Positions 2,219-54,910 of a stretch of 54,934 nt of DNA are shown in pieces. Within the stretch, counting starts at the first letter, position 1. The number at the start of each line of letters is the position of its first letter. The notes under the pieces are model-generated. The model was not told where the DNA came from and did not search any database. It saw nothing but the letters and a program-made list of their open reading frames with translations. The stretch comes from Candidatus Uhrbacteria bacterium (GTDB lineage Bacteria > Patescibacteriota > Patescibacteriia > UBA9934): NCBI GenBank assembly GCA_018673485.1, contig JABHCP010000016.1, positions 1 through 54,934 on the forward strand. The letters run 5' to 3'. The translations under genes and the position numbers were made by a program.

Positions 2219-2247
2219 TTGACAAAAGGCGTTTTTTCTGCTATAGT
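2219..2247 (+). promoter_or_regulatory. Sigma70-type promoter with extended -10
   Basis: TTGACA-N17-TATAGT with TG immediately upstream (TGn). Confidence 0.8.
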
Positions 2248-2316
2248 TACTGGCTTTCTCGATCTCGAGACAAGCTCCCCCAAGCACCTGGGAGACCCCC
2301 AGGGAAAGGCTCAGCA

Positions 2317-2907
2317 ATGAGCACCGACAGCAAGACCGTCCTCAACGCCCTCCAAGCCCTCATCGAAACGGCCGCCGCAGGAACCAACCCGCGGATCAAC
2401 GCCGAGTACGTCGAAGGCATGGTACGAGTGAAGCCCGACGGCACCAACCGAGGCAGCTACGTCGAGGGCGTGAACACCCTCGAGGCCACCAAGCGGCTCC
2501 TGGAGCAGCTCGGGTGGACGCTCGTGGCCCACGAAGACCTGCCCGAAGGTGTGGCCTTCCCGCCGGCGTCCTACTTCTGCGCCGAACTACCCGAGGGAAT
2601 GACAGCGCGCACCGGGATGATCCTCTACAAGGATCTCTCGGGCGAGCAGAAGAGCCAGGTCCAACTGGTCGAAGGCGACCACGGTCCCGAGATGGTGCTC
2701 CGGTGGTCTGGCCCCCTGGCCACCACCACCCAGGTCTGGGCCATCATCGGAACAGACGGCTGGATGCTCTGGTCGTGGTACCCCGCGCCCCTCGCGCCCC
2801 GGTACAACGGGCTCTTCGACGCCCTGCGAACCCTCTTCCGCGGCGAGACAATTGACCACGAGAGCATGGCCAAGATCGAAGCCCTGCCCGTGAAGTTGCT
2901 CTGCTAG
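2317..2907 (+). CDS. Hypothetical protein (GC-rich stand-alone gene)
   Basis: 196-aa ORF with strongly G/C-ending codons, GGGAAAGG upstream of ATG, dedicated promoter; no recognisable motif. Confidence 0.8.
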   Translation: MSTDSKTVLNALQALIETAAAGTNPRINAEYVEGMVRVKPDGTNRGSYVEGVNTLEATKRLLEQLGWTLVAHEDLPEGVAFPPASYFCAELPEGMTARTGMILYKDLSGEQKSQVQLVEGDHGPEMVLRWSGPLATTTQVWAIIGTDGWMLWSWYPAPLAPRYNGLFDALRTLFRGETIDHESMAKIEALPVKLLC

Positions 2908-3095
2908 CAGCACCGGAGCTCGTTGACTCCTTAAAAACAACCATCGCAGCAAGCTATGCGCGCTGCACATGGGATAATCGATTGTTGGCACAAACCAACT
3001 GGAACATCGATTAATCAAAGACCTAAAAATCCAACAGATCCAGGTATGTACCTGTCGATCAACCGGATAAGGCAAACACCCAAAGTTCCCAACGT

Positions 3096-3125
3096 ACCCT
3101 GCGATTCGTATCGTAGGGTTCTTTA
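3096..3125 (+). terminator. Intrinsic terminator-like hairpin
   Basis: ACCCTGCGAT-TCGT-ATCGTAGGGT (one G-U on + strand) followed by TCTTT. Confidence 0.55.
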
Positions 3126-3135
3126 GTTGCAAAGC

Positions 3136-3164
3136 AAAAGAACTGAGATGAGCCCAGTTCTTTT
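3136..3164 (-). terminator. Intrinsic terminator of lipoprotein gene
   Basis: AAAAGAACTG...CAGTTCTTTT inverted repeat just after the stop at 3183. Confidence 0.55.
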
Positions 3165-3182
3165 AAATATCAAAGTTCAAGT

Positions 3183-3668
3183 CTACTTAACGTATGTTGA
3201 GATTGTATAGAAGCTGCAATTAAGTCCATCATCAAAGCAAACATCAAATGCACCCCTCCAAGTACCACTCTCCAATGCTACTGCGTGGAAAGTTACGGTC
3301 GATCCACCAACTGGCACATCAGTTAATAGTGTATGTGTATATGTTCCATCATCAAGCAAAAATGCATCAGAAAAATCTGGGGTTGATGATGTAATTGCTA
3401 CTCCTTCCAAATATGTTGCTCCAATATCAATACTGTGCAAAATTTGAGTCTCATCAGCGTCATGTGTGATTGTTGCCACTACATCAAACTCCTCTCCCAC
3501 ATCAACGGCAGATGGCACACTAATACTCGCCTCCGGAATGGAATCATACTCTCCCCATGAATAATCATATTCAGCTGAGTCGTCAGAGCTCCACTCATAG
3601 GACTTTTCGCAACTCGCTCCCATTAACACTAGAGCGAACACGCTCATCAATAGTACTGCTTTTTTCAT
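3183..3668 (-). CDS. Predicted lipoprotein with a beta-sandwich-like domain
   Basis: MKK + hydrophobic stretch + LMGASC lipobox; acidic beta-rich mature region. Confidence 0.75.
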   Translation of the reverse strand: MKKAVLLMSVFALVLMGASCEKSYEWSSDDSAEYDYSWGEYDSIPEASISVPSAVDVGEEFDVVATITHDADETQILHSIDIGATYLEGVAITSSTPDFSDAFLLDDGTYTHTLLTDVPVGGSTVTFHAVALESGTWRGAFDVCFDDGLNCSFYTISTYVK

Positions 3669-3733
3669 AATACTTTGTTTATAATTATCTTAAATATTAT
3701 ACAAGAGACTCACAACGTCTGAAAGCCCGCTTA

Positions 3734-4753: not shown

Positions 4754-4786
4754 ACATTGTATCGCCTATGAAGCGTTTAGAGAAGC

Positions 4787-6295: not shown

Positions 6296-7012
6296 TTACT
6301 CCGCGTTTGTAAATACCGCATCAACATCATCATCCTCCTCTAGCAAATCAATAAATTTCATCAGCCTGGCACCTTGGTCATCGGTGAGCTCAACTGTTAT
6401 ATTCGGAACGTATTCTAGCCCAGCGGCAGAGATTGCAAGTTCTAAAGCCTCAACCGCGTTTGATGTTTTCTTAAAATCTTGAACTTCTGAAGTTACGATT
6501 AAACCATCTACTTCATGCCAATCAATATCCATGGCGCCCGCATCAATTAGCTCAAGTTCAATAGAGTCTCGATCTTCGATCTTTGAAATATCCTCAACTC
6601 TTACCACAGCCCTTTGATCAAACTGCCACTTAACCTTAGCCTCCATATTTCCTCCATTCTTGTTGCTGGTGGTTTTAATATTAGTGTAAGCACGATTCGT
6701 ATTGTCGGTAAGTGCCACTATCAACATCGATACGCCGCCTGGGCCCATACATTCATATACTGCGTTTTCAAGCGCTGCCCCTTCGCCATCCCCTGCACCT
6801 CGAGAAATTGCTCGTTCTATATTATCCTTTGGCATGTTAACAGCCTTTGCTCTGTCCACTGCCAACCTTAGAGAAAAATTCATGGCAGGGTCCGAACCAT
6901 CACGTGCAGCAACCGAAATAAGCTTGGCAAGTTTTGAAAATGCCTTACCGCGCTTAGCGTCAGCTGCTCCTTTTTTGTGGCGAATAGACGCCCATTTACT
7001 ATGTCCTGACAT
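6296..7012 (-). CDS. yebC: YebC/PmpR family protein
   Basis: MSGHSKWASIRHKKG, NMPKDNIERAI, YECMGPGG, LEEDDDV. Confidence 0.96.
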   Translation of the reverse strand: MSGHSKWASIRHKKGAADAKRGKAFSKLAKLISVAARDGSDPAMNFSLRLAVDRAKAVNMPKDNIERAISRGAGDGEGAALENAVYECMGPGGVSMLIVALTDNTNRAYTNIKTTSNKNGGNMEAKVKWQFDQRAVVRVEDISKIEDRDSIELELIDAGAMDIDWHEVDGLIVTSEVQDFKKTSNAVEALELAISAAGLEYVPNITVELTDDQGARLMKFIDLLEEDDDVDAVFTNAE

Positions 7013-14681: not shown

Positions 14682-14714
14682 ATGACGGCAGCAGATAACA
14701 GCATTCCAAAAGCC

Positions 14715-14836
14715 GTCATCCCGAGCGAAGCCGAGGGATCTGCGTCAGTAAATAGCATTATTCCATACGCGGTCATCCTGAGCGAAATTATATTGTCGCC
14801 AGGCGAAGCCTGGCCCGGCTACGCCGGGAAGGATCT
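14715..14836. repeat. REP-like elements (GTCATCCCGAGCGAAGCCGAGGGATCT family), second copy interrupted by nested hairpins
   Basis: Copy 1 at 14715-14741; copy 2 split between 14772-14786 and 14828-14836, with CCAGGCGAAGCCTGG and CCCGGCTACGCCGGG between. Confidence 0.65.
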
Positions 14837-15155: not shown

Positions 15156-15668
15156 ATGGCACGCGATGCCGAGCAAAGCCCCGAAATCACCATCAAAGTC
15201 GGTGGTCTCTCCATCACAGCGCCAAGGCACGAGATTGGTGACACGCTCAACCAACTCACCCAGAGCGCTGACACGCTAGAGCTTGATTTCAGCGCCTCGA
15301 GCAATCAAGGTTGGGCCCTAAAAATGATGGAACTGCTGATAGAAAGACAGCGGGTCATCTGCTACTTGATGCGGCCGATCGGTGACCTTGAACTCTCAGA
15401 CGCCACACGCGCCATGATTGAGGGTCTCAACCTCATCGACGCGCCTCAGTGGGTCGTTCTAGACAGGTTCACCAATGCCAGAGCATGCGACTCGACCTCT
15501 GAAGCCACTCTCTACACTAGGCTGGCGGAAAAAGTCATGCGCGAGCTAGGCTATCAGAATACATGGGAAATTCGCTGTGCGATTATGGCCATCTCTACGG
15601 TGAAGATCCTTGAAGCTCGCAGCGCCCACGGAAGCCGCATCCTGCAAAGCCACCACACTCACTCGTAG
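15156..15668 (+). CDS. Hypothetical protein (stand-alone gene)
   Basis: AAAGGAG SD 5 nt before ATG 15156; GC-richer codons; own terminator. Confidence 0.7.
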   Translation: MARDAEQSPEITIKVGGLSITAPRHEIGDTLNQLTQSADTLELDFSASSNQGWALKMMELLIERQRVICYLMRPIGDLELSDATRAMIEGLNLIDAPQWVVLDRFTNARACDSTSEATLYTRLAEKVMRELGYQNTWEIRCAIMAISTVKILEARSAHGSRILQSHHTHS

Positions 15669-17657: not shown

Positions 17658-18662
17658 TTAAACTTGTTCTTTGATTGCTTTTTCTGTTGCTTTGCGGATC
17701 TCTTTTAGCAGCTTCTTGTCTGCTCTTAGGAATTGTCGTGCATTCTCGCGTCCGACGCCGAGCTTTGCTTCTCCGAATGTATAAGTATTTCCTTTTTTAG
17801 TGATTGACTCAACTTGAATTCCAACATCGAGCAAATCACCGGCGACTGATATTCCTTCGTTGTACATAATATCGAACTCGCAACGTTGGAAGGGGGGCGC
17901 CACCTTGTTTTTCACAATCTTCGCCTTAACTCGGTTTCCTACGATCTGCTCTGCTTGCTTAATTTGCGCTGATCGACGTACCTCAATACGAACTGATGAG
18001 TAAAACTTCAATGCGTTTCCACCGGACGTTGTCTCTGGGTTTCCAAACATGACTCCGATCTTGTGACGAATCTGGTTAATGAATATTACAGTTGTATTAG
18101 ACTTTGAAACGATCCCCGCAAGCTTACGCAAGGCCTGACTCATCAACCGTGCCTGTAAGCCCATGTGATGGTCACCCATATCTCCTTCAATTTCTGCCTT
18201 TGGAGTAAGTGCTGCCACGGAATCAATAATAATAACATCGACCGCGCTTGACCGAACAAGCGTGTCCACGATCTCGAGTGCCTGCTCTCCCGTATCGGGT
18301 TGCGAAATAAACAATTCATCGATATTAACACCGATTTTTGCTGCGTACTCAGGATCAAGGGCGTGCTCAGCGTCAACAAACGCTGCAACACCACCAATTT
18401 TTTGAACCTCTGCAACGATGTGCTGTGCTAATGTTGTTTTTCCAGATGATTCCGGACCATAAATCTCAATAATTCGCCCACGAGGGACTCCACCGATTCC
18501 TAGCGCTAGATCTAATGAAAGACACCCAGTGGATACTGATTCAACATTCAAAGCTTTGGCGTCACCCAGGCGCATAATTGAACCTTCGCCATAACGTTGC
18601 TTGATTTGCGCTATCGCTTCATCTGCTGCTTGGAATTTTGCTTTTTGATCTTCTTTTGACAT
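17658..18662 (-). CDS. recA: Recombinase RecA
   Basis: [44 protein letters not shown]. Confidence 0.99.
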
Positions 18663-21931: not shown

Positions 21932-22693
21932 ATGTCCCTTAGACTCGACATCGGTGTGGTATGCGACATTGGCGGAGCTGACCCCCAAAAAGGCAATGAA
22001 GATACCTACTTCATCTATCTACCCGCACACGCCATTGGTGTAATCGATGGGATGGGAGGACCAGGCGATGGCAGATTGGCTGCAGATATGGTGAGCACAG
22101 CCTTCCAAGGTCTAATGCACATCGAGGAGCCCGATGAAAGCATACTGGCAGCCGCTGTTCGCGATGCCAATAGCCGGGTATTGCGAGCCAACAAGACCGC
22201 GCGACGCAAGCCTGGAAATCGTATGGGCGCTGTTGGTACCATCGCTTGGATTGATGTGCGAACAGGCACAACCCTAATCGCCCAAGTTGGTGACTCACGT
22301 GCCTATGTGCACAGCGATGGTTCTATCGAACAAAAAACCGTCGATCAAACACCTTTGGCTGGAATGAACGAAGCCCAGCGCATGTGCCACCCGCACAAAC
22401 ATCACATCCAATACGCGTTTGGGCTAAAGGAACAATTACCTGCTGATTATTACCAGATCAGTCTTACTCCAGGAGACACGCTCCTCCTATGCTCAGACGG
22501 GCTTACGGACTATGTTGGATCTACAACGCTCATCCGTATACTCGACATGGACGTAAGTGCGCAGAAGATTGCATACGAACTCCTCAAAGAGGCACTTAGA
22601 TGCGGTACTTGCGACAATGTGACAGCAATCGTCGTCAAGGTGCTGCCCGATAAAAGTCTTGCAGGCGCTGGACAAACACTCTGTCCCGTATAG
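21932..22693 (+). CDS. PP2C/PPM family Ser/Thr phosphatase
   Basis: NEDT, IDGMGG, VGDSRAY, LLLCSDGL, DNVT; GGAGG SD before ATG 21932. Confidence 0.92.
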   Translation: MSLRLDIGVVCDIGGADPQKGNEDTYFIYLPAHAIGVIDGMGGPGDGRLAADMVSTAFQGLMHIEEPDESILAAAVRDANSRVLRANKTARRKPGNRMGAVGTIAWIDVRTGTTLIAQVGDSRAYVHSDGSIEQKTVDQTPLAGMNEAQRMCHPHKHHIQYAFGLKEQLPADYYQISLTPGDTLLLCSDGLTDYVGSTTLIRILDMDVSAQKIAYELLKEALRCGTCDNVTAIVVKVLPDKSLAGAGQTLCPV

Positions 22694-22804: not shown

Positions 22805-23371
22805 CTATTTATTTACTCGCTCCAAATAAGTTCCTTCTTCGGTATTTACTCTAATCGTGTCACCCTGCTTGATAAATATTGGCACGCGGACCTTTAATCC
22901 ATTGTCCATCACAGCGTCTTTCTGAACGTTGCCAGAAACTGTATCTCCCTTTGTTGCTGGCTCGGTTTGCTCTACCACAAAATCAACCTTAACTGGAATA
23001 TCAACTGCGATTGGCTTATCGCCATACATCACAACGGTAACCTGCAGTCCTTCCTTCAAATATGATGCCGCCTCGCCGACCGTATCCGCGTCAATCATTA
23101 CCTGCTCATATGTCACACCGTCCATGAAAGTGAACGAGTCACCCTCTGCAAAAATATATTGCATGTTCTTATTCATGACATCAGCAAACTCAAGTGTTTC
23201 ACCTGACTTGAAATTCTCCTCAATAACTTTTCCAGATGTGAGCGACTTCATTCTTGTTCTAACGAAACCACCACCTCGGCCAGATGATGATCGGGTGTAA
23301 TTTACAACCACCCAAAGATCATCCTTATATTTTATTACTGTACCGCGCCTGATTGAAGTCGGAGAAGCCAT
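22805..23371 (-). CDS. efp: Elongation factor P
   Basis: GRGGGFVRT loop, TEPATKGDT, VPIFIKQGD..VNTEEGTYLERV. Confidence 0.95.
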   Translation of the reverse strand: MASPTSIRRGTVIKYKDDLWVVVNYTRSSSGRGGGFVRTRMKSLTSGKVIEENFKSGETLEFADVMNKNMQYIFAEGDSFTFMDGVTYEQVMIDADTVGEAASYLKEGLQVTVVMYGDKPIAVDIPVKVDFVVEQTEPATKGDTVSGNVQKDAVMDNGLKVRVPIFIKQGDTIRVNTEEGTYLERVNK

Positions 23372-25162: not shown

Positions 25163-25471
25163 CTAGGTCCTGTAAAAAACCACGCTGATCACAGCTATGG
25201 AAATAAGGATACTCGCGAGCATACTCCAGAACATCAATGTATTTTTGGTCTTGATGCCCACGAGAGTGAATACGATCTGGATCACACAGAAGATCGCCCA
25301 CATCGGGATCGAAATAGCCCGCACATCCTCGGCGATGATCACATCTTTGAGCTGTGGCACGAGTGCGATGGGGTTGAGGATCGTAATCAGACCAGATACA
25401 CGGTTGAAGTACCTGTGCTCCAAGGGCCAAGTCAGCCAGCGATAGAGTCTATCGATGAGCCTTTCGCTCAT
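25163..25471 (-). CDS. PQ-loop / SemiSWEET-like small membrane protein
   Basis: ALVPQL..IIAEDVRAISIPMW motif, three hydrophobic helices; GGAGGTGA SD. Confidence 0.75.
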   Translation of the reverse strand: MSERLIDRLYRWLTWPLEHRYFNRVSGLITILNPIALVPQLKDVIIAEDVRAISIPMWAIFCVIQIVFTLVGIKTKNTLMFWSMLASILISIAVISVVFYRT

Positions 25472-26735: not shown

Positions 26736-26822
26736 GCCAAAATTAGCATAAATGGCTTGACAAAAAGCCATTTTTGTGTTTAAATACTCAGTCTTTCGTT
26801 CCCCCTACAACCTGGAGTGATC

Positions 26823-27902
26823 ATGAACAAGGACACGCTCATCCGCATTGGCGGCCGCCTGTGGGCAGCCGTCATCAAGTACACCCCCATCGTCATCGGT
26901 GCCATCTGGTGCTTCCTGCGCAAGTGGACACCCATCATGTGGTCCGCGCTCGTGAGCTGGAGCTGGCGCTTCATGTGTTTCGTTGGTCGATTGATCCGCA
27001 CCACGGCCATCAGCCCTCTGCGTGGCAGCCCCAAGGTCTGGCTCTTCGGAGCTACCTGGGGAGTCCTCTGCACTGGTATCGCCGTATTGTGCTTCACCGT
27101 CTTCTACGGTCCGGTCGAAAACCCGATCACCAAGGATTCGCTGATCGCCACCTGCGACATCGAGGATGGCCCGGAGGAGTGCGACGAGGACGGCCCGGAA
27201 GCCCCAAAGGCTCGCTCGCTCGTTCGTGGTATCGAACCCAACGAAACGCAGTACGTGCTCAAGCAGTACAATGAGTTCGTGGGCAACCCCACCTGGGCCA
27301 AACGTACCAATGACTGCCTGACCGAGTACTGGCACTACTTCGAGGACGCGGAGCGCTTGACCCGATACCCTGCCGAGCTCATCGCTGGCATGTCGCTGAT
27401 CGAGGCCGAAGGCTGTCAGTTCATCCCTGCCCGAAACGGTGACGGTGGCATCGGCCCAATGCAGATCACTGGCTACCCCGGTAGCGGCATCATCAAGCGC
27501 GCAGCCAAGATCCTCAGCATCTCGGAAGGCGAGGTGGATTACAAGAACGACTACCTCCACAACGTGGTGGTCGGAACCGCGATCCTCGCCAACTACGAGA
27601 GCCAACTGCAGAGTCGCGGCCCGGGTCTCTTGGCCTATAACCGTGGGCCAGGGAACGTCCGCAAGGACATGCGTCGCGCCAAGCTCACCAGCCTGAAGCG
27701 CCGCGTGCTCTCGGATTTCCGTGGAGCGATCCCCTACAGCGCCGGGCGCGGTGGCAAGCCGCGGATCTACGCAGACAAGGTCTTGGCCGGCATGGTCATG
27801 ATTGACCGCATGTCGCGTGGCCTCACACTGAACACACTCTCGAGCCTAGATCTCGACGAAATCCCTGGATCCGACCCGTCCCAAGACGGTAAGAACCGCT
27901 GA
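26823..27902 (+). CDS. Membrane-anchored lytic transglycosylase (SLT-like) protein
   Basis: MSLIEAEG (catalytic Glu candidate), GIGPMQI, NVVVGTAIL, LLAYNRGPGNV; N-terminal hydrophobic segments; GGAG SD; high GC. Confidence 0.8.
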   Translation: MNKDTLIRIGGRLWAAVIKYTPIVIGAIWCFLRKWTPIMWSALVSWSWRFMCFVGRLIRTTAISPLRGSPKVWLFGATWGVLCTGIAVLCFTVFYGPVENPITKDSLIATCDIEDGPEECDEDGPEAPKARSLVRGIEPNETQYVLKQYNEFVGNPTWAKRTNDCLTEYWHYFEDAERLTRYPAELIAGMSLIEAEGCQFIPARNGDGGIGPMQITGYPGSGIIKRAAKILSISEGEVDYKNDYLHNVVVGTAILANYESQLQSRGPGLLAYNRGPGNVRKDMRRAKLTSLKRRVLSDFRGAIPYSAGRGGKPRIYADKVLAGMVMIDRMSRGLTLNTLSSLDLDEIPGSDPSQDGKNR

Positions 27903-27922: not shown

Positions 27923-27960
27923 TCTCCGACCTCCGCCCACTTCGTGGCGGGGGTCTTTGC
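27923..27960 (+). terminator. GC-rich terminator
   Basis: GACCTCCGCC..TTCG..GGCGGGGGTC followed by TTTG. Confidence 0.6.
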
Positions 27961-29083: not shown

Positions 29084-29136
29084 ACGCAAAGAAGTCTACC
29101 TGATTATAAAGCACTTGAAAAGCGCTTGATCTCCAA

Positions 29137-29165
29137 TTGACAAAGAGCTAAAATCAGGCTAATGT
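29137..29165 (+). promoter_or_regulatory. Sigma70-type promoter
   Basis: TTGACA-N17-TAATGT upstream of the caspase-like gene. Confidence 0.65.
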
Positions 29166-29202: not shown

Positions 29203-30405
29203 ATGATCCACACCATGCTTCTGACCCTGTGCCTCGCTATGTCCTCTGTGGCCCTTGGGCAGGAGGATGAGATGCCCGGTCAGCTCGACATCCAAGAGCT
29301 TGAAAGCGCACAACAGCTCGACCCGAGCCACGAAATCGAACCAGAACTCATTGCCGCGCTCGAAGAACGGGATCCGAAAACGTTCGCTCTGCTGGTTGGA
29401 ACTTCCAGCTTCCGGCACCTCGATGAACTTTCGCGACCCGACGCAAAAACGCTGTGTTTTGCCAGTGCGCTGTCGCTGTACAAATCGATCCCCACCGGAG
29501 ATGTGATCGCATTGTGCGAACCAGAGGACGCAATTCGGGCTCAGATCATCGCCTCGGCTACGCAGATTCGCGATCGAGCACAAGCGGGAGACACAATCCT
29601 GTTCGTATTCATCGGCCTAGGTGTCGGTAGCGACTTTGACGAGCCGACATTTTTAACCCATGACATGACGCCACTTAGCGACCAGCTACAAGCAACGTCT
29701 ATCGGGGTAGATGAAATGGTCTCAAGCCTACGTAAGGATAATGTAAAACTGATCATGGTGCTCGATGCCTCGATCGATGCTACCCTTACATTGAGCTCAG
29801 GTGGCACCCTTGTTACTACAGGCCCTATTGCCTCGAACATTTCAGGCAAACACCTGACAATCTCTTATAGTGCCAGTCCTCGTGAATGGCAACTGGATGA
29901 GAATTTGTTCGGCCGTACGCTAGCCGACGGACTCGCTGGCGCCTCTGACCTGGATCAGGACAGCCAAATCTCGGCCGCTGAGCTCAAGAGCTTCATGGTG
30001 ATGCAGATCGATGCGCACACCAGTAAGTCACTTGGCTTGCGTGGTGAGTGGAACGATTCGACCGAGCCGTTCCTGACGCTACCCACCCCCGAACCGATCG
30101 TCGAGGTCATCGAACCACGCTCCTGGCGTCCCAGTGCACCACCCGCAATGCGCAAGATCGTCATCATTGGTGGTAGCTCCATGCTCGCGACAGGTGCGGT
30201 GACCTACGCCCTGGCCTGGCGCTCACAAAACCAATTGGAAGATCTGCACTACAACAACCAGTCTGAGTACAACTCGATGGTGTCGCAGCGCAACGCACTT
30301 CTCTGGACCAGTCGTGGTACCGGCGCCCTCGGCGCTATCGCGCTCGGTGGAGGGCTCATCCTTCACCCGCAAGGTGCAACCGTGAGCGTCACCGCTCGCT
30401 GGTAA
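29203..30405 (+). CDS. Secreted caspase-like (peptidase C14 fold) protein, catalytic dyad apparently absent
   Basis: Signal peptide; TFALLVG, GDTILFVFIGLG (usually SGHG), IMVLDAS (usually DAC), LAGASDLDQDSQISAAEL; C-terminal Gly-rich hydrophobic helices. Confidence 0.7.
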   Translation: MIHTMLLTLCLAMSSVALGQEDEMPGQLDIQELESAQQLDPSHEIEPELIAALEERDPKTFALLVGTSSFRHLDELSRPDAKTLCFASALSLYKSIPTGDVIALCEPEDAIRAQIIASATQIRDRAQAGDTILFVFIGLGVGSDFDEPTFLTHDMTPLSDQLQATSIGVDEMVSSLRKDNVKLIMVLDASIDATLTLSSGGTLVTTGPIASNISGKHLTISYSASPREWQLDENLFGRTLADGLAGASDLDQDSQISAAELKSFMVMQIDAHTSKSLGLRGEWNDSTEPFLTLPTPEPIVEVIEPRSWRPSAPPAMRKIVIIGGSSMLATGAVTYALAWRSQNQLEDLHYNNQSEYNSMVSQRNALLWTSRGTGALGAIALGGGLILHPQGATVSVTARW

Positions 30406-30465: not shown

Positions 30466-30487
30466 AAAAAATAATGGAAGGCTATTA

Positions 30488-30525
30488 ATTTTCATGATTG
30501 GTTCGATCGAACCAATCATGAAAAT
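30488..30525. repeat. Perfect 38-bp palindrome of the TTCA-N9-CGATCG family
   Basis: ATTTTCATGATTGGTTCGA|TCGAACCAATCATGAAAAT. Confidence 0.9.
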
Positions 30526-30572
30526 AATGTTTTTAAAGAGCCGTATTACGACGGCTCCATTATTCATATCAT

Positions 30573-41933: not shown

Positions 41934-41961
41934 AAAATCACCGCATCTAGTGCGGTGATTT
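41934..41961 (-). terminator. tRNA terminator
   Basis: AAAATCACCGCA-TCTAG-TGCGGTGATTTT inverted repeat. Confidence 0.75.
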
Positions 41962-42038
41962 TGGTGACCCCGGTAGGACTCGAACCTACAACCTTATCCT
42001 TAGGACGGATCTGCTCTATCCAATTGAGCTACGGAGCC
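41962..42038 (-). tRNA. tRNA-Arg (anticodon CCT)
   Basis: GGCTCCGTAGCTCAATTGGATAGAGC...GT-CCT-AA...GGTTCGAGTCC...CACCA cloverleaf with encoded CCA. Confidence 0.95.
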
Positions 42039-42040
42039 AT

Positions 42041-42056
42041 AGTTTCACGTGAAACA
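42041..42056. other. parS site
   Basis: AGTTTCACGTGAAACA, 15/16 to the consensus. Confidence 0.75.
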
Positions 42057-42134
42057 TGCGTCGTAAAACATTACACATCGCTGTTGAAGCAACAAAATTA
42101 CGATGGTGGTATAATATCACAAAACCAAAATACT

Positions 42135-44722: not shown

Positions 44723-45161
44723 AAAACACCCCGCTCGGAGCACCGAAACGGGGGCAAGACTCTCTCACAATGCACACTTCACACAGTAACGAAGAATCGA
44801 TGTGTGAATTTGTTACCATGGCGATCTTTCCACCTCACGACACAAGGAAACGAATTATCGAGGTCAGAAGGACTTATCACTTCAACTACAATCTCACTGC
44901 AGTCATCGCGCTTGAGCGCCACTGCAACAGCCTTGAAGACGTGAGCATTCACCCCCTCTAAATCATCTTGTACACAAGCACACTCTCGAATCGCATCGTG
45001 AGCTGCCGACGCCATACTATAGGCCCAGATAGATCCAAAATCGATCTGACTCCATTCTCTAGACATGATTAACTCCTTGGGATATTGACTTACACATGAA
45101 GAGTGTAGGTAGTAGATTAATCAATAAAAATTAAAAAGTCAATCCAAAAACACCCCGCTCG
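44723..45161. mobile_element. Putative inserted cassette bounded by 15-bp direct repeats
   Basis: AAAACACCCCGCTCG at 44723-44737 and 45147-45161, each an arm of a terminator-like hairpin. Confidence 0.5.
44779..45066 (-). CDS. Hypothetical protein (stand-alone gene)
   Basis: AAGGAG SD; TTGACT-N17-TAATCT promoter at 45114-45142; own terminator at 44722-44754. Confidence 0.7.
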   Translation of the reverse strand: MSREWSQIDFGSIWAYSMASAAHDAIRECACVQDDLEGVNAHVFKAVAVALKRDDCSEIVVEVISPSDLDNSFPCVVRWKDRHGNKFTHRFFVTV

Positions 45162-45799: not shown

Positions 45800-45828
45800 T
45801 TGACAAAATTGCCATTTTTTGATAATTT
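45800..45828 (+). promoter_or_regulatory. Sigma70-type promoter
   Basis: TTGACA-N17-TAATTT with TGn extension. Confidence 0.6.
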
Positions 45829-45855
45829 ATTCAGTCCCCACGAAGGAGAAAAACC

Positions 45856-46371
45856 GTGTCAGACCTCGAACGCGTCATGATCTTTGTCGATGGCTCCAAC
45901 CTGAGCTCTGCTCTGCGAAAACTGAGGGCAGAACAAGTACTTTATCTACCGATGTTCAGACAGATGTGTGCCGAGGTCTCCGGTAGGCCCATGGCTGTGC
46001 ACTACTTTGACAGCACATCACCTGGCCCAAAACGAGATACTCGCATCACACTTTTTCGTGCGCTCGCTCGCATACCCAAGGTCCATCTCCATATCCACGA
46101 AAGAGTTGCAAATGGAAACAGCTCGCAAGAGCGTGGCGTCGATGTTGACCTAGCTGCCCACATGACATTGTTGGCGAGCACCGACCAGTTCGATATCGCA
46201 ATCCTTGTAAGCGGCGACCAAGACTTCGTGCCGGTGGTAAAGTTAGTGCGGGATATTGGAAAACGCGTCTTCATTATCACTGGCGGACACGGAGCCGCGC
46301 AGTGCTACCATGATGACAACTACTTCGTCCACCTGGAACAAATCCTACGTGATATGCGCAAAAGCGCATAA
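45856..46371 (+). CDS. NYN domain (LabA/DUF88, PIN-like) protein
   Basis: IFVDGSN, ERGVDVDLA, ILVSGDQDFVPVV..GKRV; AAGGAG SD before GTG. Confidence 0.9.
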   Translation: MSDLERVMIFVDGSNLSSALRKLRAEQVLYLPMFRQMCAEVSGRPMAVHYFDSTSPGPKRDTRITLFRALARIPKVHLHIHERVANGNSSQERGVDVDLAAHMTLLASTDQFDIAILVSGDQDFVPVVKLVRDIGKRVFIITGGHGAAQCYHDDNYFVHLEQILRDMRKSA

Positions 46372-49570: not shown

Positions 49571-49605
49571 ATTTACATCGTACGTTGAAATACATAATTA
49601 AGTCA

Positions 49606-50066
49606 AAAAGTGATCCGCCCGGCATCCATGAGGACGCCGGGCGGGTGGAGAGACGCGAGAGGAACGAGGTCCGCTCACATCAAGGAGGGTGAGATCAGGT
49701 GGTCGCCAAGACGATGGCGCGCGTGGGGGGGGACAAGCGGGCGCAGGACCCGACAACCACCTGATCTCGAAATGTAGGACCGGACCAACAAGCTCAAGAG
49801 CTCATCGGCGACAGCGAGCATCCGGCGAACCGGGGGAGTCTCGCTGCAGAAGGGCTGCGCGACAAGAGGATCGCGCGCCGTGCATCGTTCAGCCGTAGCT
49901 CCGTAGAGCAAGCGGCCCGGTCCAGGGTCGTAAGGAGTCTGCAGCGAAGGGGAGGCTCGAGGTTCCCCTTACCCTCATCCGGGCGCGACTCGCACGCTGT
50001 CGATATTCCTTAACCCTTCGTGACAGCACACGTGAAACGCGCGGGATCACGAATTTCTAAATCTGC
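49606..50066 (-). ncRNA. Candidate ~450-nt GC-rich structured non-coding RNA, class unknown
   Basis: Promoter-like TTGACG-N17-CACTAT at 50073-50101, many nested stems with minus-strand G-U pairs, UACG and UUCG tetraloops, terminal terminator; no credible ORF. Confidence 0.6.
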
Positions 50067-50155
50067 TCCAAGATAGTGCCATAAACTACAAAACACGTCA
50101 ACAATAAAGGACTCGCGTTTTACAGCGAGCCCTACGACGAGCGATGCACGGGTCG

Positions 50156-50533
50156 TTAGATCAGCCCCGACAAGATCAGGCCCAAGTCCACTGCAACGTG
50201 GCAGAACTGATCCATCTTGATGGTCTTGATGATGTTATAGCGGGCCTTGAGCGCATCGATCACCATGTGCGAGACGATCCTGATCACAAGTGCCAGTGCC
50301 GTCATGCTAAAGCTCAGTGCCAGACTCACACCAGGCACGATACTGAGCTCGAAGCTTGGCATCAGCCAGAGCAGCATGATCGGCGCATTGGCAGTGACGG
50401 CGTGGTAAAAGAGCACTTCACGTGATTTACCCTTTTCCATCGCCATCCATGCGCTTTGCAGACCAAAGTCCCCCCACACGAACAGAAGGTACATGACAGT
50501 CAGCTTAACGAGAACGAGCAGAGCGAAGTCCAT
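50156..50533 (-). CDS. DUF3307-like membrane protein
   Basis: GDFGLQSAWMAMEK..H..SHMVIDALK..DQFCH pattern; AGGAGG SD; high GC. Confidence 0.7.
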   Translation of the reverse strand: MDFALLVLVKLTVMYLLFVWGDFGLQSAWMAMEKGKSREVLFYHAVTANAPIMLLWLMPSFELSIVPGVSLALSFSMTALALVIRIVSHMVIDALKARYNIIKTIKMDQFCHVAVDLGLILSGLI

Positions 50534-51443: not shown

Positions 51444-51665
51444 ATGCAATACACACAAAAATCACTCGAGCAGTACTTTGCAGAGCATGGCGTAACCGAC
51501 GCTGATGCAAAGGCAAAACTTTTACCACTCATCACAGACCTTATCTATGATCGCAATATGCATGTTGTAGAGCTGGAAAAAGAAGAGGACGAGTATAAGA
51601 TCAAACAGATCCAAGAAGGGATTACGGACCTGGAAGATGAAATCAAACGTCAATTCGAAAATTAG
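51444..51665 (+). CDS. Small hypothetical protein
   Basis: 73-aa ORF tightly packed between trmB-like gene and gpmI. Confidence 0.7.
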   Translation: MQYTQKSLEQYFAEHGVTDADAKAKLLPLITDLIYDRNMHVVELEKEEDEYKIKQIQEGITDLEDEIKRQFEN

Positions 51666-51668
51666 ATT

Positions 51669-53237: not shown

Positions 53238-53268
53238 CAATGCGCAGATCAAAAAAATTAAAAACCAC

Positions 53269-53352
53269 CCATTCCGAGCTCTGCGAGGAATCCCGCTGTT
53301 TACGTCAACGTTCTATCAATACGCACGGGATCCTTCGCTCCGCTCTGGATGG
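53269..53352. repeat. Inverted REP-like doublet (same family as 14715 and 43290)
   Basis: CCATTCCGAGCTCTGCGAGGAATCCCG and inverted CGGGATCCTTCGCTCCGCTCTGGATGG. Confidence 0.65.
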
Positions 53353-53440
53353 ATTCTTATAGCTAATTTCAATACCACTTAAATTTTTATAAACGAAAAG
53401 CCGCCTTATGTCAGGCGGCAGACTAGCCAGATGGCCAGTA

Positions 53441-53848
53441 TCAAACGGCGAGCGCCTCTGCGAGCTCAGAGCTGAGCGAGTGCCAGAAGCTCCCGACCTC
53501 GAGGTCAACGACCCTTCCGATCAGGAGGGTCCTGCACGAGCGCGAGCGATGCGGCCGCAAGATGTGCAGGGAGACGTCACCGAGAATGAACACGTCTGCC
53601 GTGCACTCCCCGACTTTTCTCACTGCCGTGCCACGCACTGCGCTCCCTGGCATGGTCACGCGGAAGTTGAGCCGGGGAAGCCCATGGTGCGCCGACCGAA
53701 CCTCATCGACCGTGCAGCCGAGGCTATGAAGCTCTTCCGCGATATCCTGCCACACGAGATCACCGTGCGCAGTTACATCGAAGAAACAGTGGGTAACAAC
53801 CCACAACCCTTCGTCTTTCTCGACAGTTGTCGTAGGATCTCCGCTCAT
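53441..53848 (-). CDS. Hypothetical protein (GC-rich stand-alone gene)
   Basis: AAGGAG SD; TTGACA-N17-TATATT promoter at 53895-53923; terminator GCCGCC..GGCGGCTTTT near 53396-53419; overlapping + strand ORF lacks such signals. Confidence 0.65.
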   Translation of the reverse strand: MSGDPTTTVEKDEGLWVVTHCFFDVTAHGDLVWQDIAEELHSLGCTVDEVRSAHHGLPRLNFRVTMPGSAVRGTAVRKVGECTADVFILGDVSLHILRPHRSRSCRTLLIGRVVDLEVGSFWHSLSSELAEALAV

Positions 53849-53975
53849 CGCATGCTCCTTGGTGCATGAAGTTATTGAAACGAGTCAACGAAGTAATATA
53901 GCAAAAAAACAGGCCTTTGTCAATACTTTCGCCTGTTTTTTTGACTAATGTTTGCCTATTTATTTGAAATACTCC

Positions 53976-54175
53976 CTACACCTTTGCATCAATTATAATA
54001 GCCACTGGGTAATGATCAGATCCGTATACGTCCGTCATAATCATCGCGTCTTTGATTTTTGACTCAAGGCGCTTGTCGGCCCAGAAGTAGTCAATGCGCC
54101 AACCAACATTGCGCTCTCGTGCACGCGTAATTACGTCCCACCACGAATACATGTCTCGTTTTTTGTGAATAAAAA
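53976..54175 (-). pseudogene. xth: C-terminal fragment of exodeoxyribonuclease III
   Basis: YSWW..ARERNVGWRIDYF...GSDHYPV motifs only; upstream part replaced by a terminator. Confidence 0.8.
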
Positions 54176-54206
54176 AAGCCGCCCACCGAGGTGAGCCGAT
54201 AGGCAG
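54170..54206 (-). terminator. GC-rich terminator downstream of the M23 gene
   Basis: GCTGCCTATCG...CGGTGGGCGGC with G-U pairs then T-tract on the minus strand. Confidence 0.65.
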
Positions 54207-54370
54207 CTCAGCTTCTCGTGGACGACACGTACGATTACCCAGCAACGCTCTGCAGGAATAATTGCGCGATGCCCAGCAGAATAAGAGTTAGTGACAAGAA
54301 CATTATGACTGCGGTCTGACATCCGATGATTACGCTTGTTCCGCTATACCACACGATCATCTGTACTTTT

Positions 54371-54910
54371 CTACCCATCATGACTTTGCTCCTGCCAGTG
54401 TCTTACATTAAAGCGAGGTTTCAGGCTCATAAAGCCGAATGCTCCGCGGCCGTCATCACTCATGAACGCCATGAAGTGAAGATGGTCACAAGAGGTCCAG
54501 CCCGTCTTACCAGTTCGGGCAATAGGCTGGCCTGCGCTCACATGATCACCAACGTGAATATCGAACTCACGTTCTGATCCCCGCGCCAGATGACAGTACT
54601 GAGTCCAGTAATGGTACTCGGGTGGTCCGGAGTGATGATGCGTACGCCACGTATGGTGCGCGATCGTAATGAAGTTGAGATGATCAGCAAACTCGGGACT
54701 AGGCCCCCAGATATCAGAGCTAGTCACAATCTCCTCCACGCGGCCCATATCAGCCGCGCACACTACGGTTCCGTCTGGCACTAAGAAGTCGACAGCGTAA
54801 CGATAGGGACCAATGTGGCTCGCTGGACTCTTGCAACACAGGAATGGACCCACTTGAAACAGAAGTTCTCGGCGAAGACCCTTAGCAAGCTCATGTGCTC
54901 GCTCTTGCAA
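54371..54910 (-). CDS. M23 family metallopeptidase
   Basis: AVDFLVPDGTVVCAADMGRV, YCHL, GQPIARTGKTGWTSCDHLHF; start uncertain, near window edge. Confidence 0.85.
   Translation of the reverse strand: MQERAHELAKGLRRELLFQVGPFLCCKSPASHIGPYRYAVDFLVPDGTVVCAADMGRVEEIVTSSDIWGPSPEFADHLNFITIAHHTWRTHHHSGPPEYHYWTQYCHLARGSEREFDIHVGDHVSAGQPIARTGKTGWTSCDHLHFMAFMSDDGRGAFGFMSLKPRFNVRHWQEQSHDG

What the first reader, a model, noticed from the sequence alone, without database searches (positions are those of the whole stretch)
2219..54910. Two gene classes in one chromosome: dispersed self-contained GC-rich single-gene units with SD signals among SD-less backbone genes
SEEN: backbone genes start after AT-rich, SD-free sequence ending in T-ATG (recA aaagtttactATG, efp aacaccatATG, polA atctatctatATG, yebC atcatttATG, rmuC aaaatactATG, gpmI attagattATG). 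About 11 isolated genes are GC-richer: 2317, 15156, 21932, 26823, 29203 and 45856 on +; 25471, 45066, 50533, 53848 and ~54910 on -. Ten have an SD-like motif (AAGGAG, GGAGG, GGAGGTGA, GGAG; weaker GAAAGG at 2317), often after a C-rich stretch; the last is at the window edge. At least six have a TTGAC[A/T]-N17-TAnnnT promoter and most end in a GC-rich terminator. No integrase or transposase is in the window. Cargo is rich in wall hydrolases (SLT, M23), a signalling phosphatase, a nuclease, a pseudo-caspase and orphans. INFERENCE: either a gene-by-gene capture system that inserts complete transcription units, or a separately regulated gene class in an episymbiont. A speculative version is that these transcripts are tuned for a GC-rich host's ribosomes.
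Basis: partly seen in the sequence, partly recalled or inferred. Interest (0 to 1): 0.85.

Follow-up and report, generated by a model that had tools for sequence, protein, structure and literature searches.

The report
Two gene classes with different expression signals
A tiny marine bacterial genome holds a core of genes that start translation without a ribosome-binding site and about 130 scattered, GC-rich, mostly unknown accessory genes that each carry a textbook promoter and ribosome-binding site.

Summary
GC3 is bimodal, with modes at 0.39 and 0.69. A model trained on upstream sequence alone splits genes into a T(-1)/no-SD class and an SD class. The SD class takes 106 of 125 genes with GC3>=0.56 but 40 of 700 with GC3<0.45.

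Backbone genes look leaderless or coupled: a -10 box ends 8-9 nt before the ATG in 75 of 373. GC-rich genes are stand-alone and leadered, often with TTGACA-N17-TAnnnT promoters, C-ending codons and mostly TAG stops. They are mostly orphans: 27 Pfam families in 140 proteins, against 229 in 134 controls.

Relatives carry the same split. The GC-rich genes sit in conserved intergenic slots, where they diverge fast, are lost, or are replaced.

I found no integrase, flanking repeats or donor. My best reading is a flexible pool of self-sufficient accessory genes turned over gene by gene, not a dedicated capture system. Why they stay GC-rich is unexplained. rpsU carries the strongest SD in the genome, as in Bacteroidia, so a ribosome-state switch remains possible.

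The parts
2219..2247 (+). Promoter-like site TTGACA-17-TATAGT with an upstream TG, 70 nt before the 2317 start.
   Evidence: 11 of 12 matches.
2317..2907 (+). GC-rich orphan gene of 196 aa, GC3 0.87, with a weak SD (GGGAAAGG). It has no syntenic homologue in G001-G003.
   Evidence: One search found only 2 homologues among 5.8 billion proteins, and one search found none.
3096..3119 (+). Terminator-like hairpin downstream of the 2317 gene.
15156..15668 (+). GC-rich ORF of 170 aa, GC3 0.65, SD AAAGGAG. Whether it is a real gene is uncertain.
   Evidence: There is no Pfam match and no protein in the large collection, not even itself.
21932..22693 (+). PP2C/SpoIIE-type phosphatase, GC3 0.50 (borderline), SD GGAGG. 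Syntenic homologues are only 30-37% identical and have GC3 0.57-0.72.
25163..25471 (-). Hydrophobic protein of 102 aa, GC3 0.70, SD GGAGGTGA. TTGACA-N17-TACTCT lies upstream. It is present in G003 (67% identity) and the site is empty in G001, G002 and G005.
26757..26785 (+). TTGACA followed after 17 nt by TTAAAT, overlapping the terminator hairpin of the upstream gene. The scan tool does not call it.
26823..27902 (+). SLT-domain lytic transglycosylase of 359 aa, GC3 0.80, SD GGAG at 26814-26817.
   Evidence: It lies in the same slot and is GC-rich in G001, G002 and other genera. G003 carries a LysM/vWA-like ORF in this slot instead.
27928..27955 (+). Terminator-like hairpin (10 pairs, 8 of them G-C) after the SLT gene.
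29126..29154 (+). Promoter-like site TTGATC-17-TAAAAT before the 29203 gene.
   Evidence: 9 of 12 matches.
29203..30405 (+). Caspase-like (Peptidase_C14-like) protein of 400 aa with hydrophobic N- and C-terminal stretches (read by eye), GC3 0.62, SD GGAG.
   Evidence: One search gave no Pfam match; one search gave the Atlas lead. It occupies the same slot in 3 same-genus genomes and in G176, G006 and G015 at 23-51% identity, and is GC-rich there.
30488..30557 (+). Two terminator-like hairpins after the 29203 gene. The first is a dispersed palindromic repeat.
44779..45066 (-). ORF of 95 aa with SD AAGGAG but backbone-like GC3 (0.44). It has no homologue in the syntenic regions.
45800..45828 (+). 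TTGACA-17-TAATTT before the NYN gene. It falls below the scan tool's threshold.
   Evidence: Read.
45856..46371 (+). NYN-domain nuclease of 171 aa, GC3 0.57, GTG start, SD AAGGAG at 45843-45848.
50156..50533 (-). DUF3307 membrane protein of 125 aa, GC3 0.73, SD AGGAGG. It is 71-75% identical in G001-G003, with GC3 0.71-0.76 and the SD conserved.
50108..50133 (-). Terminator-like hairpin after the DUF3307 gene.
53895..53923 (-). Promoter-like site TTGACA-17-TATATT with an upstream TG, before the 53848 gene.
   Evidence: 11 of 12 matches.
53441..53848 (-). GC-rich orphan of 135 aa, GC3 0.71, SD AAGGAG. The slot is an empty 104-bp site in G001 and G002.
   Evidence: One search found only itself in the large protein collection.
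53400..53419 (-). Terminator-like hairpin after the 53441-53848 gene.
54371..54910 (-). M23 peptidase, GC3 0.53, at the window edge, so its upstream region is not readable.
17658..18662 (-). recA, an example of a backbone gene: GC3 0.39, T at -1, no SD. The same holds in G001-G005, including GC-rich G004.
22805..23371 (-). efp, a backbone gene with T at -1 and no SD.

Best explanation
The window is a typical sample of a two-tier genome found throughout this family of very small genomes.

TIER 1 (about 85% of genes) is the lineage's native mode of expression.
- First genes of a unit have a -10 box ending 8-9 nt before the ATG, so their mRNAs have almost no leader.
- Later genes follow the previous stop by 1-4 nt.
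- Nearly all have U at -1 and no Shine-Dalgarno sequence.

TIER 2 is about 125-135 stand-alone accessory genes. They are mostly orphans, plus wall hydrolases, a phosphatase, a nuclease and a few second copies of housekeeping genes.
- They sit one or two at a time in intergenic slots.
- Each has its own -35/-10 promoter, a C-rich leader, an SD, GC-rich and C-ending codons, and usually a TAG stop.

SHOWN. The two classes exist; they coincide in composition and signals; and the slots are conserved while their contents diverge fast, vanish or are replaced between species.

INFERRED. Tier 2 is the flexible gene pool of the lineage, gained and exchanged one gene at a time, probably by DNA uptake and recombination. 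A gene dropped between operons cannot use leaderless or coupled initiation. So only units that bring their own promoter, leader and SD are expressed and kept. SD-dependent initiation remains possible because the 16S keeps its anti-SD. No dedicated capture machinery is involved.

OPEN. I cannot say why the pool is, and stays, GC-rich. It may come from a GC-rich source that uses SD, with turnover faster than amelioration. Or a GC-ward force may act on this class only.
For: BIMODAL COMPOSITION. GC3 modes lie at 0.389 and 0.691 with weights 0.85 and 0.15.

SPLIT BY START CONTEXT. EM on the upstream 22 nt alone gave two classes. The SD class holds 106 of 125 genes with GC3>=0.56 and 40 of 700 with GC3<0.45. 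Most exceptions look like mis-set starts.

BACKBONE INITIATION.
- A TATAAT-like box ends 8-9 nt before the ATG in 75 of 373 first-in-unit backbone genes. No GC-rich gene (0 of 125) has one within 17 nt.
- All 17 listed starts of the tuf/ribosomal-protein cluster have T at -1 and none shows an SD by eye.

ISLAND PROMOTERS. TTGAC[AT]-N16-18-TAnnnT precedes 46 of 125 GC-rich genes but 27 of 749 backbone genes; shuffles give 0.3%.

STAND-ALONE LAYOUT. 2% of GC-rich genes have a gap under 30 nt to a neighbour, against 34% of backbone genes. 47 of 84 lie opposite the local strand majority, against 115 of 566.

ORPHAN STATUS. 27 Pfam families in 140 GC-rich proteins, against 229 in 134 length-matched backbone proteins. 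Three species-specific island proteins have 2, 0 and 0 homologues among 5.8 billion proteins.

TURNOVER. Empty sites of 52-278 bp occur in relatives. SLT is replaced by a LysM/vWA-like ORF in G003. Slot genes are 23-54% identical where their flanks are 65-87% identical.

FAMILY-WIDE PATTERN. T at -1 without SD holds even in G004, whose backbone GC3 is 0.8-0.9. The SD is kept in island orthologues.

ANTI-SD. The 16S 3' end keeps the anti-SD.

JUNCTIONS. Independent metagenome contigs confirm the island/backbone junctions.
Against: - No donor was found, and homologues outside the lineage are nearly absent, so import from elsewhere is not shown.
- Positional orthologues are GC-rich in every genome looked at. 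The logit GC3 offset over flanks averages 1.23 (sd 0.28) in 10 genomes. G004 has SD-led slot ORFs at GC3 0.95-0.96 against a backbone near 0.82. After that much divergence, plain foreign DNA should have drifted towards the backbone. This fits a class-specific force at least as well as import does.
- Islands share the lineage's rarity of TGA stops (16%; backbone 9%; 2 of 16 in G004). That argues against ordinary GC-rich bacteria as donors.
- The gene calls are my own two-model ORF caller, so starts of GC-rich genes are often uncertain.
- Leaderless transcription is inferred from box spacing alone. No RNA data were available.
- Terminators are no commoner after GC-rich genes than after backbone genes by my strict detector (22% against 21-30%).
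Confidence: 0.55

Rival explanations
1. Tier 2 is a native, separately governed gene class. It is kept GC- and C-rich and SD-dependent by selection or by biased gene conversion. Its translation is gated by the state of the ribosome: most ribosomes ignore SD, and those with a free anti-SD (for example, lacking bS21) translate the SD-led class.
For: - rpsU has the strongest predicted SD/anti-SD duplex of 925 genes (-19.2 kcal/mol).
- Its AGAAAGGAAGGTGA-type motif is conserved, with one or two base changes, in five relatives with backbone GC3 from 0.3 to 0.85. In Flavobacterium, rpsU is the one gene with a strong SD and is translated by bS21-free ribosomes (PMC13000453 abstract; PMC9976891 passages).
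- The GC3 offset of islands over flanks is similar in 10 genomes.
- The caspase-like gene sits in the same slot in three genera and is GC-rich in each.
- Sense-strand C3>G3 holds whatever the orientation.
- Islands share the lineage's stop-codon habit.
Against: - Selection on synonymous sites of about 130 mostly orphan genes in a reduced genome is hard to credit.
- Island SDs are short (4-6 nt), whereas in Flavobacterium an extended SD is needed.
- Sequestration of the anti-SD was not testable here.
- Many island genes are species-specific with empty sites in relatives.
- Four island coding regions are no more structured than shuffles (z -0.8 to -1.3).
Confidence: 0.22
2. The islands are recent transfers from ordinary GC-rich bacteria that use SD (for instance hosts), and they still carry donor signals.
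For: - GC1, GC2 and GC3 (0.62, 0.48 and 0.81 for the 2215-2907 ORF) look like genes of a genome of about 63% GC.
- They carry canonical -35/-10 promoters and SD.
- GC-rich second copies of NDK and the H+-pyrophosphatase stand beside backbone copies at 32% and 44-49% identity.
Against: - Almost no homologues exist in 5.8 billion proteins for the three tested.
- TAG is the stop in 65% and TGA in 16%. By my recollection, TGA is the commonest stop in GC-rich bacteria.
- Syntenic GC-rich orthologues occur across genera.
Confidence: 0.1
3. A dedicated capture system, integron-like or otherwise, inserts complete transcription units.
For: Single-gene units lie in intergenic slots, with presence/absence differences between species.
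Against: - There is one tyrosine recombinase in the whole genome and none in the window.
- Repeats are not enriched beside islands.
- Units are dispersed, have their own promoters, and face either way.
Confidence: 0.03
4. The units are meant for expression in a host cell: host-type signals on DNA or RNA that is delivered to the host.
For: Only the contrast between the textbook signals of the islands and the atypical signals of the backbone.
Against: - The bacterium's own 16S has the anti-SD.
- The units are scattered over 89 places, not in a transferable block.
- Their stop-codon use follows the lineage.
- No host is known.
Confidence: 0.02
5. The pattern is an artefact: chimeric assembly, contamination, or chance ORFs in GC-rich non-coding DNA.
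For: - GC-rich DNA gives long chance ORFs.
- 15156-15668 is not in the protein collection.
- One GC-rich unit (49605-50075) has no ORF.
- 8 of 42 contig ends are GC-rich, against 9% of windows genome-wide.
Against: - Contigs from four runs cross the junctions at 100% identity.
- The same layout occurs in relatives.
- GC3 far exceeds GC2, as in real coding sequence.
- Protein-level homologues and Pfam domains exist for several islands.
Confidence: 0.02

Closest known systems
Atypical (horizontally acquired) genes and flexible genomic islands of the replacement type
   Same: The islands have deviant composition, a patchy distribution among relatives, fast divergence and many genes of unknown function. 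Different genes occupy the same chromosomal slot in different species. GeneMarkS-2 reports 8-9% atypical genes on average (PMC6028130, passages).
   Different: The units here are mostly single genes at 89 places. They are GC-richer, not AT-richer, than the host genome, whereas PMC6028130 says atypical genes are frequently lower in GC. They differ as a class in promoter type, leader, initiation signal and stop codon. They also stay GC-rich in positional orthologues across genera.
Genomes with leaderless first genes plus SD-led other genes (GeneMarkS-2 group C; Actinobacteria, Deinococcus)
   Same: A Pribnow box stands at a fixed short distance from the start of first genes, and a second set of genes carries SD.
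   Different: In group C, internal operon genes are expected to use an RBS. Here none of the 17 starts of the tuf/ribosomal-protein cluster shows an SD. SD use is nearly confined to the compositionally foreign accessory class.
SD-blind ribosomes of Bacteroidia with rpsU autoregulation (PMC7797042 listing; PMC9976891; PMC13000453)
   Same: Most genes lack SD although the 16S keeps the anti-SD. rpsU carries the strongest, extended SD-like sequence in the genome, and it is conserved among relatives.
   Different: In F. johnsoniae only rpsU has an obvious SD; here more than 100 other genes have one. The lineage differs too: uL30 was not found, and all 120 sampled genomes of the phylum are 0.5-2.1 Mb. 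The backbone signal is U at -1 and a -10 box, not upstream adenines. Sequestration of the anti-SD is untested.
Integron gene cassettes
   Same: Single genes are added one at a time, and many have unknown function.
   Different: Integron cassettes sit in an array beside an integrase, are flanked by attC sites and mostly lack promoters (recalled). Here there is no integrase nearby, no shared flanking repeats, dispersed positions, and a promoter per unit.

Membership tests
Horizontally acquired / flexible accessory genes | Composition deviates from the rest of the genome. | tested here: met
   GC3 modes lie at 0.39 and 0.69, and codon use differs.
Horizontally acquired / flexible accessory genes | Patchy presence among close relatives, with empty or differently filled sites. 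| tested here: met
   5 of the 11 window genes have no syntenic homologue in G001-G003. Relatives show empty sites of 52-278 bp. A LysM/vWA-like ORF replaces SLT in G003. SLT is found in 10 of 41 genomes and the caspase-like gene in 7 of 68.
Horizontally acquired / flexible accessory genes | An identifiable donor, or a gene tree at odds with the species tree. | tested here: inconclusive
   No donor was found. Island proteins of G000 are not closer to G003, the nearest species, than to G001 and G002. No tree was built.
Horizontally acquired / flexible accessory genes | Mobility genes, tRNA genes or repeats at the borders. | tested here: not met
   One search found one recombinase, on another contig. 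One search found no repeat enrichment. One search found one tRNA in the window, not beside an island.
Integron cassettes | An integrase with an adjacent cassette array and attC sites. | tested here: not met
Leaderless-type genome (GeneMarkS-2 group C) | A -10 box about 10 nt before the start of first genes. | tested here: met
   A sharp peak at 8-9 nt: 75 of 373, with a background of about 1-8 per position. The set was limited to backbone genes with an ATG start and T at -1.
Leaderless-type genome (GeneMarkS-2 group C) | Internal operon genes use an SD-type RBS. | tested here: not met
   No SD is visible before any of the 17 starts of the tuf/ribosomal-protein cluster. The T class makes up 80% of genes.
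Bacteroidia-type SD-blind translation | Most genes lack SD while the 16S keeps the anti-SD. | tested here: met
Bacteroidia-type SD-blind translation | rpsU carries an exceptionally strong, conserved SD. | tested here: met
   It ranks 1 of 925 and the motif is conserved in 5 relatives.
Bacteroidia-type SD-blind translation | The anti-SD is sequestered by bS21, bS18 and bS6, and ribosomes fail to use SD. | not testable with these tools
   This needs ribosome structure or biochemistry. The presence of more than 100 SD-led genes argues that SD is used at least at times.

The most novel reading that the evidence does not exclude
In this lineage of tiny-genome bacteria the default ribosome initiates without SD pairing and may even hide its anti-SD, as in Bacteroidia. 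On this reading rpsU, with the strongest SD in the genome, senses bS21 supply. The roughly 130 GC-rich, SD-led, stand-alone genes (wall hydrolases, signalling enzymes, nucleases and orphans) would form a translational regulon read only by ribosomes with a free anti-SD. The whole accessory or interaction gene set would then switch on together. Its GC- and C-rich make-up would be kept because it makes these mRNAs invisible to the default pathway.
Probability: 0.1. Interest if true: 0.9.

Novelty: new variant of a known kind. Interest (0 to 1): 0.66.

Why it matters
If confirmed by transcript and ribosome data, this would be a clear natural case of one cell running two expression 'dialects'. The core uses leaderless or coupled, SD-free initiation. 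The accessory genome uses textbook promoter-plus-SD units.

- It would explain why a lineage that hardly uses SD keeps its anti-SD.
- It would give a simple rule for finding the flexible, probably interaction-related genes of uncultured tiny-genome bacteria.
- It warns that single-model gene callers will mis-call about one gene in seven here. A single-model pass of my own caller put 2 of the window's islands on the wrong strand (2311-2532, 26805-27605) and left 6 of the 11 uncalled.
- The persistence of GC-rich composition in fast-evolving positional orthologues, across genomes whose backbone GC3 runs from 0.3 to 0.85, is unexplained. It bears on the debate over what sets bacterial GC content.

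My four full-text searches found nothing on this split. These cover open-access papers only. I did not ask for supplements.

Tried and rejected
DONOR SEARCHES.
- Pattern scans of species genomes with the 2317 and 29203 proteins confirmed nothing. These find only close relatives.
- Viral contigs gave nothing for SLT and one weak 51-residue hit for DUF3307.
- PHROGs and PADLOC tallies of 140 island proteins showed no phage-structural or defence signature: 39 and 7 families, mostly single hits.

TAXONOMY. The Atlas search with RecA was uninformative. I infer Patescibacteria/CPR only from the missing uL30 and from genome sizes of 0.5-2.1 Mb across the phylum sample. bL9 is present, which by PMC9297842 argues against Saccharibacteria.

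EXPRESSION. No RNA holder was listed. The laid runs were DNA contigs, and no joint skipped an island.

REPEATS AS BORDERS. Not enriched.

RNA STRUCTURE AS THE REASON FOR GC-RICHNESS. Four island coding regions gave z -0.8 to -1.3. I ran no backbone controls. A genome-wide z-score script timed out without output.

DIRECTION OF SUBSTITUTION AT SYNONYMOUS SITES. In a four-species parsimony test, islands gave 37 S>W against 13 W>S over 183 columns. The backbone gave 624 against 1298 over 6219 columns. Saturation and composition bias this test, so I draw no conclusion from it.

SD ENERGIES OVER ALL CANDIDATE STARTS. Taking the minimum over all candidate starts was too noisy. I replaced it with the EM model.

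MraZ AS A CORE GENE IN THE GC-RICH CLASS. Rejected: its GC3 is 0.55, it has T at -1 and no SD, so it is a borderline backbone gene.

RF2 LOSS AS THE CAUSE OF RARE TGA. Rejected: prfB is present.

Full report
WHAT THE WINDOW IS. The window is the whole of contig C16 of a 1,028,129-base, 21-contig genome with about 44.5% GC.
- Ribosomal protein uL30 was not found and bL9 is present.
- All 120 other genomes drawn from the same phylum are 0.5-2.1 Mb.
- This fits a member of the Patescibacteria/CPR that is not a Saccharibacterium. That is an inference, using PMC9297842 passages on which lineages lack bL9.
- Near-identical DNA occurs in marine and seawater metagenome runs of several studies.
- The 16S gene ends in ...GGATCACCTCCTTTCTA, so the canonical anti-SD is present.

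CHECK OF THE OBSERVATION IN THE WINDOW.
- Sliding GC shows islands of 0.50-0.60 in a background of 0.39-0.46.
- My first, single-model gene caller skipped 6 of the 11 listed genes and put 2 on the wrong strand. A two-model caller recovered most of them.
- GC3 is 0.87, 0.80, 0.73, 0.71, 0.70, 0.65, 0.62, 0.57 and 0.53 for nine of the eleven listed genes. It is 0.50 for the PP2C gene and 0.44 for 44779-45066. Backbone genes have 0.33-0.47.
- All ten readable island starts have an SD-like motif at the right distance. Seven have C at -1.
- 25 of 33 backbone starts, as listed, have T at -1 and no SD.
- Pfam confirms recA, efp, polA, yebC, SLT, PP2C/SpoIIE, NYN, DUF3307 and M23. The 29203 protein resembles caspase-fold proteins in the Atlas, which is a lead only.
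- The scan tool finds 11-of-12 promoters before 2317 and 53848(-), 9-of-12 sites before 29203 and 50533(-), and terminator-like hairpins after 7 of the 11 genes.
- The only tyrosine recombinase in the genome is on C5.

THE WHOLE GENOME SHOWS THE SAME SPLIT, AND MORE SHARPLY.
- Composition. Of 935 called genes, 134 have GC3>=0.53 (84 kb). A two-component mixture (0.389 and 0.691; weights 0.85 and 0.15) beats one component by about 740 BIC units.
- Start context, unambiguous starts. Among genes with an unambiguous start, T is at -1 in 81% of 178 low-GC3 genes. Among 29 high-GC3 genes, G reaches 52% at -10 and -9, and C is at -1 in 52%.
- Start context, EM. An EM mixture that saw only the 22 bases before candidate starts converged to the same two classes from 6 of 6 seeds. 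One class (weight 0.80) has T at -1 in 88% and ATG in 95%. The other (weight 0.20) has G at 41-67% from -10 to -6, a C-rich stretch further upstream, and C at -1 in 46%.
- Coupling to GC3. The SD class holds 40 of 700 genes with GC3<0.45, 13 of 80 at 0.45-0.50, 11 of 20 at 0.50-0.56, and 106 of 125 at >=0.56. By eye, most exceptions are mis-set starts.

HOW THE BACKBONE IS EXPRESSED.
- I took backbone genes with an ATG start and T at -1; other backbone genes were dropped from this count. A TATAAT-like hexamer ends exactly 8 or 9 nt before the ATG in 75 of 373 first-in-unit genes, against roughly 1-8 at other positions. This is also true of 19 of 217 internal genes.
- Internal genes mostly start 1-4 nt after the previous stop.
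- All 17 listed starts of the tuf/ribosomal-protein cluster on C11 have T at -1, and none shows an SD by eye.
- This is the signature of leaderless or near-leaderless first genes and coupled later genes. GeneMarkS-2 describes the box-at-about-10-nt pattern for its group C, but expects RBS sites on internal genes (PMC6028130 passages).
- The regime is old. In five genomes of the same order or class, 57 of 58 r-protein starts have T at -1 at GC3 from 0.27 to 0.67. Of 15 other lineages of the phylum, most lack SD, and two (G069, G123) use it.

HOW THE GC-RICH GENES DIFFER.
- Leaders and promoters. None of 125 has a -10 box within 17 nt of the start. Exact TTGACA lies 25-130 nt upstream of 52 of 125, against 48 of 749 backbone genes. 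TTGAC[AT]-N16-18-TAnnnT lies upstream of 46 of 125, against 27 of 749; shuffles give 3% and 0.3%.
- Layout. They stand alone. The runs are 60 singles, 23 pairs, 3 triples, two of five and one of nine. Only 2% have a neighbour within 30 nt, against 34-35%. 47 of 84 lie opposite the local strand majority, against 115 of 566.
- Codons. Third positions are C 0.43, G 0.28, T 0.17 and A 0.11, with C3>G3 whatever the orientation.
- Stop codons. TAG 65%, TAA 20% and TGA 16%, against TAA 63%, TAG 28% and TGA 9% in the backbone. RF2 is present.
- Folding at the start. The region -30..+30 folds more stably: median -10.3 against -5.3 kcal/mol.
- Size and kinship. They are shorter (median 171 aa against 263), and few are paralogues (15 of 134).
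- Annotation. 140 GC-rich proteins hit 27 Pfam families. 134 length-matched backbone proteins hit 229. These tallies count families, not proteins with a hit.
- The few known domains include M23, SLT, PP2C, NYN, GGDEF and pentapeptide repeats. There are also GC-rich second copies of NDK and the H+-pyrophosphatase beside backbone copies.
- Three species-specific island proteins have 2, 0 and 0 homologues in the 5.8-billion-protein collection.

RELATIVES.
- The window is colinear with G003 and, in pieces, with G001 and G002, all of the same genus.
- Backbone proteins are 62-94% identical to G003 apart from one at 54%, and mostly 55-87% to G001 and G002, a few falling to 34-50%.
- Island genes behave otherwise. 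DUF3307 is 71-75% identical in all three. The caspase-like gene is 40-50%, PP2C is 30-37%, and SLT is 51% in G001 and G002 only. 25163-25471 is 67% in G003 only. Five have no syntenic homologue.
- Wherever a homologue exists, it is GC-rich (GC3 0.56-0.77) and keeps its SD.
- Some slots are empty in relatives. The 53441 slot is 104 bp in G001 and G002. The 25163 slot is 145-278 bp in G001 and G002 and 127 bp in G005. The slot between 43705-44691 and polA is 52 bp in G002.
- In G003 the SLT slot holds an unrelated GC-rich ORF with what I read by eye as LysM-like and vWA-like motifs.
- SLT homologues lie beside the same flanking genes and are GC-rich in five other genera.
- The caspase-like gene lies in the same slot in G176, G006 and G015 at 23-28% identity, where the neighbouring YchF is 67-71% identical.
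- The family's backbone GC3 ranges from about 0.3 (G001) to 0.8-0.9 (G004). T at -1 without SD persists throughout. In G004, SD-led slot ORFs have GC3 0.95-0.96.
- Across ten genomes, island homologues exceed their flanks by a logit GC3 offset of 1.23 on average (sd 0.28).
- TGA stops are rare even in G004: 2 of 16.

WHAT THIS MEANS.
- Artefact is excluded. Independent contigs from four runs cross the junctions without a difference, relatives share the layout, and codon-position GC is that of real genes.
- A dedicated capture system finds no support. There is no integrase nearby, no enrichment of repeats at island borders (69 of 227 intergenic repeat segments against a 32% baseline), and nothing recognisable at the empty sites.
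- Recent import from ordinary GC-rich bacteria is unlikely. Homologues are nearly absent, and the islands share the lineage's unusual stop-codon use.
- What remains is a flexible pool of self-sufficient accessory genes that turns over gene by gene in conserved slots.
- I propose the reason they all carry a full promoter, leader and SD is a filter. In a genome whose own genes rely on a promoter placed at the start codon, or on an upstream cistron, an inserted gene can be expressed only if it brings complete signals. The retained anti-SD makes those signals work. This step is inference.
- The persistent GC-richness is not explained. Turnover faster than amelioration from an unknown GC-rich source, and a class-specific GC-ward force, both fit. 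My substitution-direction test was confounded by saturation. Four island mRNAs are not unusually structured.

A LEAD WORTH FOLLOWING.
- rpsU has the strongest predicted SD/anti-SD duplex of all 925 genes scored (-19.2 kcal/mol, 13 pairs with one bulged base).
- The motif AGAAAGGAAGGTGA is kept, with one or two base changes, in five relatives of very different GC content.
- In Flavobacterium johnsoniae the anti-SD is sequestered by bS21, bS18 and bS6. There, rpsU is the one gene with a strong SD and is translated by ribosomes lacking bS21 (PMC13000453 abstract; PMC9976891 passages; PMC7797042 seen in the search listing only).
- If ribosomes of this lineage behave likewise, the SD-led class could be a translational regulon. 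I give this 0.1.

LITERATURE. Full-text searches found no description of this split:
- Saccharibacteria or Patescibacteria with Shine-Dalgarno;
- candidate phyla radiation with ribosome binding site or leaderless;
- bS21, anti-Shine-Dalgarno and rpsU.

From recall, not from a call:
- a pyrimidine at -1 and a purine at +1 are favoured at transcription starts;
- U at -1 can pair with A37 of the initiator tRNA;
- TGA is the commonest stop in GC-rich bacteria.

VERDICT. The capture-system and host-ribosome readings are not supported. The finding is a new variant of known things (atypical accessory genes; dual initiation modes) with an unusually clean, multi-layer coupling and one unexplained feature, the persistent GC-richness.

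Noticed in passing
window 49605-50075 (-): A GC-rich unit without an ORF of 80 aa or more on that strand. A TTGACG-containing stretch read by eye lies upstream and a 13-pair terminator lies at 49644-49615. It folds at -233.5 kcal/mol, z = -7.7 against 100 shuffles. It has no Rfam match and was not found by DNA in 40 relatives. It may be a species-specific structured RNA or a decayed island.
   Followed up: partly
G000 contig C19:30307-30564 (-), locus L030; relatives L071-L075: rpsU (bS21) is preceded by AGAAAGGAAGGTGA. This is the strongest predicted SD/anti-SD duplex in the genome, and it is conserved in five relatives. The same is described for rpsU in Bacteroidia.
   Followed up: partly
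whole genome; e.g. window 40385-41299 (-), 51444-51665 (+), 6296-7012 (-): Backbone first genes have a TATAAT-like box ending 8-9 nt before the ATG, which suggests leaderless mRNAs. T at -1 without SD extends to the whole class and to much of the phylum sample.
   Followed up: partly
window 8-51, 14683-14734, 53283-53337, 24934-24969, 30487-30527: Short dispersed repeats. Most are palindromic (a GC-rich hairpin CCCCTCCTT..AAGGAGGGG, a GTCATCCCGAGCGAAGCCGAGGGATC-type element, and AT-rich palindromes around CGATCG). The first two of these types are also found in many places in same-genus genomes.
   Followed up: partly
locus L014:7137-8027 (+) of relative G003 (P0005): A GC-rich 297-aa ORF with what I read by eye as LysM-like and vWA-like motifs. 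It occupies the slot that holds the SLT gene in G000, G001 and G002.
   Followed up: no
whole genome; relatives G001-G005: TGA is a rare stop codon (9% of backbone genes and 16% of GC-rich genes; 2 of 16 in the GC-rich relative G004) although prfB is present. prfB has an uninterrupted frame, so there is no sign of the usual +1 frameshift.
   Followed up: partly
contig ends: C16 end with C5 end; C7 end with C13 end: Several contig ends share sequence, in the same or the reverse-complement orientation. Two GC-rich H+-pyrophosphatase fragments lie at the ends of C7 and C13, which suggests the assembly broke inside a GC-rich gene. 8 of 42 contig ends are GC-rich, against 9% of windows.
   Followed up: no
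window 41962-42038 (-): tRNA-Arg(CCT), the only RNA gene the tools found in the window. My longest-ORF call 41955-43253 (+) overlaps it, so that ORF's start is probably downstream.
   Followed up: no
locus L004 (G001:C6:1291-2367, -): The SLT homologue of G001 has one in-frame TAG within the matched stretch. It may be a broken gene or a shorter gene with an upstream extension.
   Followed up: no
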